Source: the human T2T-CHM13v2.0 reference genome, Homo sapiens
Direction: 5' to 3' (one strand)
Assembly: GCF_009914755.1 (NCBI RefSeq)
Contig: NC_060927.1
DNA: 64,000 bases
Part shown: piece after piece, positions 12,466-17,000 of the stretch
Numbering within the stretch: position 1 is the first letter of the stretch
Layout of the letters: each line of letters opens with the position of its first letter
Program-made: the position numbers and the translations under genes
Notes under the pieces: model-generated
What the model was told of the DNA's origin: nothing
Seen by the model: the letters and a program-made list of their open reading frames with translations, nothing else
Database searches by the model: none

Positions 12466-13509
12466 GTAAGTATCAGATTTTGTTTAATAGTGGAGGTCTA
12501 ATGTTCAACCAACCACTAAAAAATTTTGAACTTAAGGAAATAGTTTCTTAAGCACTTAATTTATAACACTCTTGGTTTCAATAAATAAATGGGAAAGTAC
12601 AAGAGATTAGGCAAATACTCTTTTCCTAGATAATATACTCAAAAGTTTTTGGTTTAATGACTATACTATTTGTGTAGTCATTCCTGTTTGTGATCACAAA
12701 TTCCAAGTTGATTAAATTTTGCAATATTCGTTTATAATTTATAAGAACTTCTATTTAATGATTGGAGCAGCTTTTTACATACTTACTAGGTGGATAACTA
12801 GTAACTACTTATATGTGGTTGTCTTATAGCCTTGTATTGATGTCTTTGAGCTGAGTGAATAGCAATACCCTGTAGTTACCTAAGCCAGAGATACTGTTCA
12901 TCTTTGACTTGTCCTTTGTTTCCCATATCCAGTCTACTGACACAAAAGTGATCCCATTGTATTTGTTTTATAGTAATTTCTTTTTCCTTCTAAGAACCCA
13001 AAGCACTTTGCAACATCTTTTGACTGCTTTATGTCCAAACTTTCTCATTCTGGTGTTTCACAACCCAGACTTGTGAAATTCATCTAATGATTATGCTATT
13101 TACAGGCTCATTGTGATATATGTGTATGTTGGTATTTCCAAAGATTTCCAAAATTTTCTGTAGATAATTTTTCATAAACTACTAGGGAAAAAAGCCTGCT
13201 GGTATAATTCTGTGCTAAAATTCAAGATCATACTAAATTTGTGGACACCCATTTATCATGGGTTTTTGTGTATTACTGCAAAAATGTGCCAATATTGGAC
13301 ATATACCTTTAGTTACTAGTAAGATTTCTGTTTATGTGGTCTATGAAATAAATTACAGTAAAAAGCATATTATTTTGGTATTTTATTTTGGAAAATAATT
13401 TACTTGGCTTTTCCCTAATAAGCTCTCTCATATAAGCCTTTGACCTGTATGCATATTTGGATAGTTTTGTTGTTTTTACAAAAAAGCTAAATCTTTCTTT
13501 CAAATTTAG

Positions 13510-13627
13510 GTTAGAAGAAGAAGAAAAGTTTTTAAATGCTGAAAGTTACTATAAGAAAGCTTTGGCTTTGGATGAGACTTTTAAAGATGCAGAGGATGCT
13601 TTGCAGAAACTTCATAAATATATGCAG
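13510..13627 (+). CDS. TTC14: TTC14 exon 10 (TPR: [21 protein letters not shown]...KYMQ)
   Basis: tttag| acceptor, CAG|gtgatt donor, 118 nt; cumulative CDS 1290 nt = 430 codons. Confidence 0.95.
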
Positions 13628-13657
13628 GTGATTCCTTATTTCCTCTTAGAAATTTAG
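13628..13657 (+). CDS. TTC14: Alternative TTC14 C-terminus on intron-10 retention (VIPYFLLEI*, 439 aa total)
   Basis: In-frame read-through to TAG at 13655-13657; matches my recollection of a 439-aa TTC14 isoform (not verified). Confidence 0.7.
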
Positions 13658-14561
13658 TGATATTTGAAATAATGCCCAAACTTAATTTTCTCCTGAGGAA
13701 AACTATTCTACATTACTTAAGTAAGGCATTATGAAAAGTTTCTTTTTAGGTATAGTTTTTCCTAATTGGGTTTGACATTGCTTCATAGTGCCTCTGTTTT
13801 TGTCCATAATCGAAAGTAAAGATAGCTGTGAGAAAACTATTACCTAAATTTGGTATGTTGTTTTGAGAAATGTCCTTATAGGGAGCTCACCTGGTGGTTT
13901 TTAAATTATTGTTGCTACTATAATTGAGCTAATTATAAAAACCTTTTTGAGACATATTTTAAATTGTCTTTTCCTGTAATACTGATGATGATGTTTTCTC
14001 ATGCATTTTCTTCTGAATTGGACCATTGCTGCTGTGTCTGTGACATCTGGTGCTGCTCATCCCCATCCACAAACTGGAAAATGATTTCCTATGTAATCAT
14101 GCATCCAACTGGGCTGTGCTATTTTTTTAAATGGTTTGTATTTGAACATGGTGATTCCTCCTTCACTTCACCTTAACGGAATGTCTTTATTTGAATTTTA
14201 TTTGTAAAATGTGTCCTGTTTAAATTTTTCAATCTTTAAAAATAATTTTTATGTACTTTTTTTTTTTTTTAACCTTTCTTGCACTCTGGGTCATGGGTAC
14301 CACTGCAATGGCTTCCCCTTTTTTTATGGGATACCAACTGCAATATGGTCCTCAATGCTGTTCTGGCCATTTCAATGACTAATGCCAAACATCTGTATGA
14401 CTAATTTTTTTATGTTAAAAAAATACTGTTTAATGCTGGCTCTATGGTGATTTGGTTTTACTAAATTGGGTTTCTCGTTGGGGGTGGTCTTTTGAATACT
14501 GGGTTTTATATATTCTGCTATTTTTAACGTGTGGTTTTTTTCGATATCTGGGTTCTAAAAG

Positions 14562-14671
14562 AAATCTTTGGAATTAAGAGAAAAACAAGCTGAAAAGGAA
14601 GAAAAGCAGAAAACAAAGAAAATAGAAACAAGTGCAGAAAAGTTGCGTAAGCTCTTAAAAGAAGAGAAGAG
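14562..14671 (+). CDS. TTC14: TTC14 exon 11 ([20 protein letters not shown]...KEEKR)
   Basis: Weak acceptor ggttctaaaag|, donor GAG|gtaaac, 110 nt; phase joins exons 10 and 12. Confidence 0.9.
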
Positions 14672-14950
14672 GTAAACTATAATATTCAGTATTTTTAAAC
14701 TTAAGGCAACTACTGAATTGAACCCAAAGTGCCATACTGGAGGTAAAGTAAATAAAAATATGAAAGTATTTCAAGTGCCAATCAGTGACTGTTAAGAATC
14801 TTTAGCAAATATGTGTTCCATGTATTTTCTTATTAAAGAGATGAAGTGGAATTTAAGGCTAGAATTCTACAAAAAAAGAGTATCTTAGAATTAAAATATA
14901 GAATAAGTTACTTTAATTATGTTTTAGGAAGAAATATTTTAGAACTAGAG

Positions 14951-15175
14951 CAGTGGTTCTCAACTAGGGGTGGATTTATTCACCCGGGGACATTTGACAA
15001 GATGTGGAGACATTTTTGATTGCCATAACTGATAGGGTGCTACTGCATCTAGTGTATAATGGTCAGGGATGCTCTTAAACATTCTGTAATGCACAGGTCA
15101 GCTCCCACCCGCACCCCCACCCCCTACCAAGAATTATTTGGCTGAAAATACCAATAATCAGGTGAAGAAACCATG
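14951..15175. mobile_element. MER20 (hAT-Charlie) with 8-bp TSD
   Basis: cagtggttctcaac...ggagacatttttgattg; aactagag at 14943-14950 and 15176-15183. Confidence 0.85.
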
Positions 15176-15490
15176 AACTAGAGGTAGCCAAATAAAAAAG
15201 TTGAGTTCTCCTTTATGTGTTCAGTAGTCTTAAGTTTTTAAGGTAGTGTTGAAAAAAGTCTGTCTTTCAGAGATGATGGATTTGCTTACAATGATACCTG
15301 TCTGCAAGCATTTTTTCCCCCAAAAGTGCTTAATAGTAAAATTAGATCTTGTAGTAGCCGAGATTATTGTATCATTTATCTGAACCACAGCTTTTATAAA
15401 ATCTTTAAAGGAAACAAATAGGGCCCACATCTTTATGAATAATTTAGAAACATTTTTGTATATATATGACAAATGAACTGTTTTTTTTAG

Positions 15491-16403
15491 GCTAAAGAAG
15501 AAAAGAAGAAAATCAACTTCTTCTTCAAGTGTTTCTTCTGCTGATGAATCAGTGTCTTCATCATCATCCTCTTCCTCTTCTGGTCACAAAAGGCATAAGA
15601 AACATAAGAGGAACCGTTCAGAGTCTTCTCGCAGTTCCAGAAGGCATTCATCTAGGGCATCCTCAAATCAGATAGATCAGAATAGGAAAGATGAGTGCTA
15701 CCCAGTTCCAGCTAATACTTCAGCATCTTTTCTTAACCATAAACAAGAAGTGGAGAAACTACTGGGGAAGCAGGATAGGTTACAGTATGAAAAGACACAG
15801 ATAAAAGAGAAAGATAGATGCCCTCTCTCTTCATCTTCACTTGAAATACCGGATGATTTTGGAGGTAGGTCTGAAGATCCAAGAGATTTTTATAACAGCT
15901 ATAAAACCCAAGCAGGTAGTAGCAAAACAGAAAAGCCATATAAATCAGAAAGACATTTTTCCAGTAGAAGAAATTCCTCAGATTCCTTCTGTAGGAATTC
16001 AGAGGACAAGATTTATGGTTATAGGAGATTTGAAAAGGATATAGAGGGAAGAAAAGAGCACTATAGAAGGTGGGAACCAGGTTCTGTGAGGCATTCTACC
16101 TCACCAGCAAGCTCAGAATACTCTTGGAAGTCAGTTGAGAAATACAAAAAATACGCTCACTCTGGATCACGTGATTTCAGTAGACATGAGCAAAGATACC
16201 GTTTAAATACAAATCAAGGAGAATATGAAAGAGAGGACAATTATGGGGAGGATATCAAAACAGAGGTTCCAGAAGAAGATGCACTAAGTAGCAAAGAACA
16301 CTCAGAAAGCAGTGTTAAGAAAAATTTACCTCAGAATTTACTGAATATATTTAATCAGATAGCTGAATTTGAAAAAGAAAAAGGAAATAAGTCAAAAAAT
16401 TAA
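15491..16403 (+). CDS. TTC14: TTC14 exon 12 (Ser/Arg/Lys-rich tail, stop TAA)
   Basis: ttttttag| acceptor; 913 nt to stop; total CDS 2313 nt = 770 aa. Confidence 0.96.
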
Positions 16404-17000
16404 TACACCAAGGATATCGGCACCATTACACAAAATGCCATTAAGTGAAGTTTTTGGTTGTATTAGTCATAACAGTTGAGTGCAGAAATCTCTGCTTCTA
16501 AAATTATTTGTAGAGATTACAGGAAACAAATGCTTTTAAGTAAGTTTTTCTCAAATTTTGTTTCAGTTCTAGGTCCCTTGTCACAGCTTGGTTTTTAGAC
16601 TTTTTATGTATATGTTTATGTACAGTATATTACTCTTGACAGTTTGAATTTCTTCACCTAAAGATAATTCTCTGAAAGTACTGTTTCTTCATTCTATTGC
16701 GGTATATGAGAATTCCTGGGTGCATCTTATTCTGCTGTTTGAGAGAAAAATTTGTGCATTGAACACTTGGATCATTTTTATAAAAATTAATTTCATTTTC
16801 TTTTCTGTTAAATTAAAAATCGTCAGCTTTTGAAAGATTATATGTTCGAATGTTTCTTGAACACTTTTATATTTATCAGTTTAAATATTACATTTTTTGC
16901 CCAATTTTTTTTAAAATTTTTAAATGGTAGATTATATGTCTTAATTTTCCTCTAAAGCCCAATTTGATTAAAAGTGGTTTGTGAACAGTCATTGGCTTCC
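16404..17000 (+). other. TTC14: TTC14 3' UTR (end approximate)
   Basis: AT-rich region after the stop; ATTAAA candidates near 16812 and 16967. Confidence 0.55.

What the first reader, a model, noticed from the sequence alone, without database searches (positions are those of the whole stretch)
13952..14561. 608-nt AG-free zone in TTC14 intron 10: candidate ultra-distant branch point or splicing sensor
Seen: after the AG at 13950-13951 there is no AG on the sense strand until the acceptor AG at 14560-14561 (checked line by line). GA and CT (antisense AG) are common and the sequence is not a simple repeat, so the depletion is strand-specific. Assuming 5% AG per position, about 30 would be expected and the chance of none is about 3e-14. 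The acceptor is poor (ggttctaaaAG). A branch-like TACTGAT followed by pyrimidines sits at the 5' edge (13980-13986, ~575 nt upstream). Established: long AG-exclusion zones mark distant branch points with scanning to the first AG and are linked to regulated splicing; typical zones are tens of nt. Inference: this is a selected RNA element that makes full-length TTC14 depend on long-range 3' splice-site selection. Because TTC14 has an S1-like RNA-binding fold, TPRs and an RS-like tail, it may be an autoregulatory sensor of a splicing activity TTC14 itself supports.
Basis: partly seen in the sequence, partly recalled or inferred. Interest (0 to 1): 0.9.

Follow-up and report, generated by a model that had tools for sequence, protein, structure and literature searches.

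The report
Far-upstream branch point in TTC14 intron
The last 608 bases of TTC14 intron 10 contain no AG because the intron is spliced from a branch point about 577 bases upstream of the exon, an unusually long but already known kind of arrangement that probably slows splicing and favours an intron-retaining short isoform.

Summary
Window 13952-14559 (608 nt) has no AG where about 24 are expected (P about 1e-11 to 2e-19; 0 of 20,000 shuffles). The other 24 annotated acceptors in the window have zones of 17-77 nt. The stretch is single-copy, not repetitive, not coding and not unusually structured.

Taggart et al. 2017 (Suppl. Table S1) list a 'distal' branch point at TACTG(A*)T, -577 from this acceptor, with 54 lariat reads (34 unique) from 23 RNA-seq sources. 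This is window A13985. Their mouse table has the same heptamer at -560, at the place I expected Ttc14 to lie. A minor proximal branch point (-41, score 4) appears in Pineda & Bradley 2018.

This is therefore a very long member of the known class of distant branch points with AG exclusion zones (Gooding 2006). No paper I could search names TTC14 for it.

The autoregulation idea is untested. One circumstantial fact supports it: TTC14 protein was detected only in catalytic (C-complex) spliceosomes. Moderate interest.

The parts
13628..13635 (+). 5' splice site of TTC14 intron 10 (CAG|GTGATTCC). It departs from the consensus at +5. The intron is 934 nt, phase 0.
   Evidence: hub annotation
13950..13951 (+). 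Last AG before the zone. It lies 22 nt upstream of the most upstream mapped branch point.
13952..14559 (+). AG exclusion zone, 608 nt with 0 AG
13980..13986 (+). Branch site TACTGAT; branch adenosine A13985, which is hg19 chr3:180325911 (-577). It is the main lariat-mapped branch point.
13973..14020 (+). Cluster of minor or alternative branch-point calls in Taggart Tables S1/S5/S6 (-589 to -542). One more lies at 14150 (-412).
13994..14015 (+). Pyrimidine tract next to the distal branch site (TTTTCTCATGCATTTTCTTCTG, 82% pyrimidine); presumed U2AF2 site
   Evidence: U2AF2 binding is inferred
14520..14541 (+). Proximal candidates: branch call at T14521 (-41; Pineda & Bradley), TTTTAAC with A14527 (-34), then a T7 run at 14535-14541
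14560..14561 (+). Acceptor AG of exon 11 (context TTCTAAAAG|A, with purines at -3 to -6). It is the first AG downstream of the distal branch point.
14562..14671 (+). Exon 11, 110 nt (skipping it would shift the frame). It is AG-rich and purine-rich.
14577..14578 (+). Second AG, 17 nt downstream. It matches the start (14579) of an exon of another RefSeq transcript.
   Evidence: hub annotation

Best explanation
Intron 10 of TTC14 is spliced mainly through a distant branch point. U2 snRNP pairs with TACTGAT and the branch forms at A13985, helped by the adjacent pyrimidine tract (13994-14015). This gives a 358-nt lariat loop with a 576-nt tail. In the second step the spliceosome takes the first AG downstream of the branch, 14560-61. 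Any AG arising in between would be used instead and would add intron sequence to the mRNA, so such mutations are removed by selection. That is why the 608 nt stay AG-free. Shown: the zone, its statistical excess, the branch point (published lariat reads), and a mouse counterpart. Inferred: that the distal branch leads to productive ligation at 14561. Also inferred: that the long distance makes the second step slow, which contributes to the annotated transcript that retains intron 10 and encodes a protein ending ...[13 protein letters not shown], without the Lys/Glu-rich and Ser/Arg-rich C-terminus.
For: The zone and its improbability. Not a repeat: single copy in the T2T assembly apart from a 52-nt T-rich match; no tandem or notable internal repeats. 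Not coding: longest stop-to-stop frame is 82 aa. No Rfam family match. The branch point: Taggart 2017 Table S1 row chr3:180325911, TACTG(A*)T, 3'ss 180326488, -577, distal, 54 total and 34 unique reads, with mismatch support, in 23 sources including nuclear fractions and an independent capture set. On the table page I read it is the best supported of 12 distal rows; the next has 7 reads. Complete Tables S5/S6 list calls only at 13973-14020, 14150 and 14562 for this intron. Mouse table: chr3:33706200, TACTG(A*)T, -560, distal, plus a second nt downstream. The same +27 offset is seen in human, 13985 to 14012. The zone starts 34 nt upstream of the branch A, as the scanning model predicts. Retention: a RefSeq exon 13510-16991 (hub), and a cattle long-read isoform retaining the intron between exons 10 and 11. 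Pineda & Bradley report far-distal branch points in 22.0% of switch-like retained introns against 4.6% of constitutive ones. AA, GG and TG, the one-step neighbours of AG, are over-represented in the zone.
Against: A proximal branch point at -41 (score 4) exists in a dataset that was blind to anything beyond 250 nt. A plausible TTTTAAC plus T7 sits at -34. The share of mRNA made from each branch is therefore unknown. Lariat read counts reflect lariat stability as well as usage. In Taggart's minigenes of three other genes, deleting distal branch points had only modest effects. The mouse entry rests on 1 read, and its assignment to Ttc14 rests on my recalled coordinates. I could not obtain any orthologous sequence, so AG-freeness in other species is unverified. 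Predicted folding gives no sign of a structure that shortens the distance (z = +0.84).
Confidence: 0.72

Rival explanations
1. The productive branch point is the proximal one (-41/-34). The distal branch is a kinetic 'holding state' or decoy that forms a lariat intermediate rarely completing step 2. The zone stays AG-free only so that this intermediate cannot ligate to a wrong AG.
For: Taggart's model and minigene results for LONP1, SHMT2 and APRT. A proximal branch call at -41. Abundant distal lariat reads would also be expected from a long-lived intermediate.
Against: There is no proximal call in Taggart's tables, which could see both sites, against 54 distal reads. The acceptor has no adjacent strong pyrimidine tract (59% pyrimidine over the last 32 nt).
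Confidence: 0.2
2. One reading: the element is an autoregulatory sensor. TTC14 protein promotes or inhibits long-range 3' splice-site use and so sets the ratio of its own full-length to truncated isoform.
For: TTC14 spectra were found only in C complex, the stage at which the 3' splice site is chosen. It is listed as a spliceosomal component and FRA10AC1 interactor. TTC14 knockout sensitises cells to CDK12/13 inhibitors in two CRISPR screens. CDK12/13 inhibition retains introns with larger branch-to-acceptor distances. PTB is a precedent for autoregulation through a distant-branch exon.
Against: There is no direct evidence: no binding data, and no splicing change with TTC14 level, in anything I could search. 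The links above are associations between separate studies.
Confidence: 0.1
3. Chance, base composition, or an AG-poor repeat that happens to lie next to the acceptor (as in one 369-nt case in Gooding 2006).
For: The zone is T-rich (43%). Gooding describes such false positives.
Against: P is 1e-11 to 2e-19 and 0 of 20,000 shuffles reach it. G is 17% and A 23%, unlike the other long AG-free runs nearby, which have G of 5-14%. The zone is single copy with no repeats. A mapped branch point sits exactly at its 5' edge.
Confidence: 0.01

Closest known systems
Distant-branch-point exons with long AG exclusion zones (Gooding et al. 2006, PMC1431707; section 6 read)
   Same: A long AG-free zone directly upstream of the acceptor. 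The next zone upstream is short (608 vs 21 nt). A consensus-like branch site plus pyrimidine tract sits at the 5' end of the zone. The intron is linked to alternative processing.
   Different: Length: 608 nt, against 838 of 67,334 exons with >=100 nt and 165 with >=150 nt. Only PTPRS (1126 nt, branch site uncertain) is named as longer in the text I read. TTC14 is not named in the text or in the held 16% of the supplement.
PTBP1 exon 11 and PTBP2 (nPTB) exon 10
   Same: Zones of 381 and 438 nt. These are genes for RNA-processing proteins, and the PTB event is autoregulatory.
   Different: There the regulated outcome is exon skipping leading to NMD, through PTB binding. For TTC14 the annotated alternative is intron retention, and no regulator is known.
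'Distal' branch points of Taggart et al. 2017 (PMC5378181; passages and Tables S1, S3, S5-S7, S10 seen)
   Same: This branch point is itself a row of their table. Like their validated cases it matches U2 pairing, has a mouse counterpart and sits in an alternatively processed intron.
   Different: It is not discussed or validated by PCR in that paper. It has far more reads than the other distal rows on the page I read, and no 'expected-zone' partner in their tables, whereas their model assumes one.
Retained or detained introns with far-distal branch points (Pineda & Bradley 2018, PMC5959240; passages seen)
   Same: A retained intron with a branch point >=100 nt upstream.
   Different: Their pipeline stopped at 250 nt, so this site lay outside it. 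Nuclear detention of the TTC14 transcript was not examined here.

Membership tests
Distant branch point / AG exclusion zone exon (Gooding 2006) | AG-free zone of >=100 nt ending at the acceptor | tested here: met
   608 nt
Distant branch point / AG exclusion zone exon (Gooding 2006) | First zone much longer than the next one upstream, and longer than composition explains | tested here: met
   608 vs 21 nt; P 1e-11 to 2e-19
Distant branch point / AG exclusion zone exon (Gooding 2006) | Branch-site consensus with adjacent pyrimidine tract near the 5' end of the zone | tested here: met
   TACTGAT at 13980-86 plus an 82% pyrimidine tract at 13994-14015
Distant branch point / AG exclusion zone exon (Gooding 2006) | Lariat formation mapped at that site | tested here: met
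   Read from published tables, not measured by me: 54 reads, 34 unique, 23 sources
Distant branch point / AG exclusion zone exon (Gooding 2006) | Zone not caused by a repetitive element | tested here: met
Distant branch point / AG exclusion zone exon (Gooding 2006) | No good branch site in the conventional position | tested here: not met
   TTTTAAC at -34 and a weak mapped call at -41. This weakens 'only distal', not membership, because several accepted cases have both.
Distant branch point / AG exclusion zone exon (Gooding 2006) | Conserved in orthologues | tested here: inconclusive
   The mouse table has the same heptamer at -560 (1 read), but the gene assignment is from recall. No orthologous DNA was obtainable.
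Autoregulated splicing event of an RNA-processing protein (PTBP1 type) | The protein binds its own pre-mRNA and its level changes the isoform ratio | not testable with these tools
   Only C-complex association of TTC14 is known.
Detained intron | Polyadenylated, nuclear, intron-containing transcript that is spliced later | not tested
   Only a RefSeq retained-intron transcript (hub) and a cattle long-read isoform.

The most novel reading that the evidence does not exclude
TTC14, a protein of unknown function seen only in catalytic (C-complex) spliceosomes, helps the spliceosome reach far-away 3' splice sites. Its own intron 10, with a 576-nt branch-to-AG distance, reports on that capacity. When the activity is low, intron 10 is retained and a tail-less TTC14 is made; when it is sufficient, the full-length protein is made. 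This would also explain why TTC14 loss sensitises cells to CDK12/13 inhibitors, which impair introns with long branch-to-acceptor distances.
Probability: 0.1. Interest if true: 0.75.

Novelty: new member of a known kind. Interest (0 to 1): 0.45.

Why it matters
With 54 reads, this is one of the longest well-supported branch-to-acceptor distances I met in the sources read. It would make a natural substrate for asking how the human spliceosome finds an AG more than 500 nt from the branch. It also lies in a gene whose protein is itself a catalytic-spliceosome component of unknown function, which gives a cheap and specific experiment. In practical terms, 241 of the 1,824 possible single-base changes in the zone would create an AG. 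These deep-intronic variants could plausibly disrupt TTC14 splicing, and standard variant filters would ignore them.

Tried and rejected
Orthologue retrieval. Exon 10 as a query was too short. The last coding exon found nothing in genome contigs or viral contigs. Exon 3 found only a bacterial S1-domain gene (L003), which is irrelevant. Conservation of the AG-free state is therefore untested.

Whole-genome ranking. 

RNA family search found nothing meaningful: 2 hits with E of 0.12 and 0.73, far below their gathering scores.

RNA folding gave an MFE of -114.3 kcal/mol against a shuffle mean of -118.0, z = +0.84. I dropped the idea that a stable structure bridges branch and acceptor.

I considered coding or small-ORF constraint, tandem or dispersed repeats, and an antisense gene. 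All were rejected. The hub annotation shows no minus-strand gene over 13952-14561.

Gooding's supplement does not contain TTC14 by name, but only about 16% of it is held (10,688 of 67,334 entries).

Pineda & Bradley's tables have no distal site, because their method looks only at the last 250 nt.

Full report
**1. The observation**

I read window 13400-14800 and listed every AG. After the AG at 13950-51 the next is the acceptor AG at 14560-61, so 13952-14559 (608 nt) has none.

- The stretch is T263, A138, G104, C103. GA occurs 18 times and CT 51 times, so the lack is specific to AG on the sense strand.
- From the zone's own composition 23.6 AG are expected.
- The exact probability of none is 1.3e-11 for independent bases. 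It is 2.0e-19 under a first-order Markov model trained on the other 5,357 nt of TTC14 intron sequence.
- None of 20,000 shuffles had fewer than 10 AG.
- In the 64-kb window the next longest AG-free run is 175 nt, and the longest CT-free run is 200 nt.
- In 264 kb around the window, both strands, there are 35,322 AG-to-AG gaps. This is the only one of 600 nt or more. The next two (309 and 237 nt) are low-complexity, and the other long runs have only 5-14% G, against 17% here.
- The other 24 annotated acceptors in the window have zones of 17-77 nt. The zone just upstream of this one is 21 nt. The first 324 nt of the same intron hold 17 AG.

I therefore cannot give a genome-wide rank.

**2. What it is not**

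- It is not a repeat family. The stretch is single-copy in the assembly apart from a 52-nt T-rich match.
- It has no tandem repeats and only two short, weak internal repeats.
- It is not coding. No stop-to-stop frame exceeds 82 aa.
- It has no credible Rfam match.
- It does not fold better than shuffled sequence (z = +0.84).
- No minus-strand gene overlaps it (hub annotation).

**3. What it is**

A simple scan for branch-site-like heptamers put the best match at TACTGAT, with the branch A at 13985, 34 nt inside the 5' edge of the zone. It is followed by TTTTCTCATGCATTTTCTTCTG, which is 82% pyrimidine. Weaker candidates lie at -385, -289, -179, -157, -97 and -34.

The decisive evidence is published. 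Supplemental Table S1 of Taggart et al. 2017 (PMC5378181) has this row: chr3:180325911, +, canonical TACTG(A*)T, 3'ss 180326488, -577, 'distal'.

- It carries 54 total and 34 unique reads, with mismatch support.
- It was found in multiple and unbiased sources: 23 RNA-seq runs covering many cell lines, nuclear fractions and an independent capture data set.
- The row fixes the offset hg19 minus window at 180,311,926, and the position is exactly A13985.
- Minor calls lie at -589, -571 and -561 (1-2 reads each).
- The complete comparison tables S5/S6 list calls for this intron only at window 13973-14020, 14150 and 14562. Nothing is listed in the usual -18 to -60 region.
- On the page of Table S1 that I read, 12 rows are labelled distal. 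This one has 54 reads and the next best has 7.
- The paper's text does not name TTC14.

**4. Conservation**

I could not obtain orthologous DNA. However, the mouse table of the same paper (sheet BP_table_5_mouse, mm9) has chr3:33706200, +, TACTG(A*)T, 3'ss 33706760, -560, distal, 1 read. Its comparison table adds a second nt downstream. Human has the same +27 pair, 13985 and 14012.

I had searched that interval because I recalled that mouse Ttc14 lies there. The gene assignment therefore rests on recall plus the identical heptamer and the similar distance, and no tool confirmed it. A cattle long-read study reports a TTC14 isoform retaining the intron between exons 10 and 11 (PMC9555877, passage read).

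There is also an internal argument for selection. 241 of the 1,824 possible single-base changes in the zone would create an AG: 83 transitions and 158 transversions. With recalled neutral rates of about 0.5-1e-9 per site per year and a 2:1 transition bias, a neutral sequence would gain its first AG in roughly 12-24 million years. This estimate is an inference and was not measured. AA, GG and TG, the one-step neighbours of AG, are over-represented.

**5. Evidence against a purely distal reading**

- Pineda & Bradley 2018 (PMC5959240) mapped branch points only within the last 250 nt of introns, so they could not see -577.
- Their held table (cut when stored) lists chr3:180326447, +, score 4. This is window T14521, at -41, next to TTTTAAC and a T7 run. 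A weak proximal branch point therefore exists.
- Read counts depend on lariat lifetime as well as on use.
- In Taggart's minigenes of three other genes, distal branch points mattered less than proximal ones. The authors propose that distal branches act as a 'holding state'.
- The AG-free zone does not decide between a productive distal branch and a decoy, because in either case an intervening AG would be harmful.

**6. Mechanism proposed**

U2 pairs at TACTGAT, with U2AF2 presumed on the adjacent tract. Step 1 gives a 358-nt loop with a 576-nt tail. Since no AG exists before 14560-61, exon ligation from this intermediate can only use that AG or a later one. The next AG, 14577-78, matches the start (14579) of an exon of another RefSeq transcript.

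The acceptor itself is poor: TTCTAAAAG, with 59% pyrimidine over the last 32 nt. The 5' splice site departs from consensus at +5. Slow or inefficient second-step chemistry would favour the annotated transcript whose exon 13510-16991 retains introns 10 and 11. That transcript reads ...[13 protein letters not shown] and so lacks the Lys/Glu-rich and Ser/Arg-rich C-terminus.

The link between distance and retention is inferred. It agrees with the enrichment of far-distal branch points in retained introns: 22.0% against 4.6% in constitutive introns.

**7. Comparison with what is known**

The class was defined by Gooding et al. 2006 (section 6 read).

- 838 of 67,334 exons have zones of 100 nt or more, and 165 have 150 nt or more.
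- PTB exon 11 has 381 nt and nPTB 438 nt.
- PTPRS has 1126 nt, with an uncertain branch site.

TTC14 meets the defining features tested, except that a conventional-position site is not absent.

No paper in the searchable library links TTC14 to an AG exclusion zone or a branch point:

- TTC14 with 'AG exclusion zone': 0 papers.
- TTC14 with 'branch': 24 papers, none about splicing branch points by title or abstract.
- TTC14 with 'intron': 27 papers.
- TTC14 with 'spliceosom': 14 papers.

Subscription journals and closed supplements were not searched. I therefore file this as a new, unusually long member of a known kind, with its branch point already sitting unremarked in a public table.

**8. 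The autoregulation idea**

Nothing tests it directly. The circumstantial facts are these:

- In a quantitative proteomic comparison, TTC14 had spectra only in C complex, alongside CDK10 and others (PMC3923134, figure legend read).
- It is described as a biochemically identified spliceosomal component of unknown function and an interactor of FRA10AC1 (PMC10048706, passage).
- TTC14 and CDK10 knockouts sensitise cells to CDK12/13 inhibitors in two screens (PMC13478345 and PMC10161439, passages).
- CDK12/13 inhibition preferentially retains introns with weak acceptors far from their branch points (PMC10287901, passages).

These links make a cheap experiment worthwhile, but they remain associations across separate studies. 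I give the idea about 10%.

**9. Verdict**

The distant branch point is supported by published lariat data. The sensor idea is untested. The kind is known, the member is extreme, and interest is moderate.

Noticed in passing
window 14387-14722 and 14392-14585: The 3' end of intron 10 and exon 11 hold the window's longest CC-free run (336 nt) and longest CA-free run (194 nt). The last ~170 nt of the intron are C-poor and G/T-rich, with repeated TGGGTT motifs.
   Followed up: no
window 13755-13780 and 14455-14480: A 26-nt direct repeat (77% identity). Each copy holds a branch-site-like heptamer (TCCTAAT / TACTAAA) followed by TTGGGTTT. It may be chance.
   Followed up: no
window 14587-14622 (exon 11): A purine-rich near-tandem repeat (AAGCAGAAAACAAAGAA, 2.1 copies). 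Exon 11 is dense in AG immediately after the AG-free intron end.
   Followed up: no
window 14562 (hg19 chr3:180326488): Taggart Tables S5/S6 list the first base of exon 11 itself as a branch call in one category only ('B'). It may be an intron-circle or end artefact of the kind the paper describes.
   Followed up: no
TTC14 protein (literature): TTC14 and CDK10 co-occur as C-complex-only proteins. Both are recurrent sensitiser hits for CDK12/13 inhibitors in two independent CRISPR screens.
   Followed up: partly
L003:10001-10105: The S1-like exon 3 of TTC14 matches a deltaproteobacterial MAG at 43% identity over 35 residues. This is an ordinary S1-domain resemblance, not contamination or transfer.
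   Followed up: no
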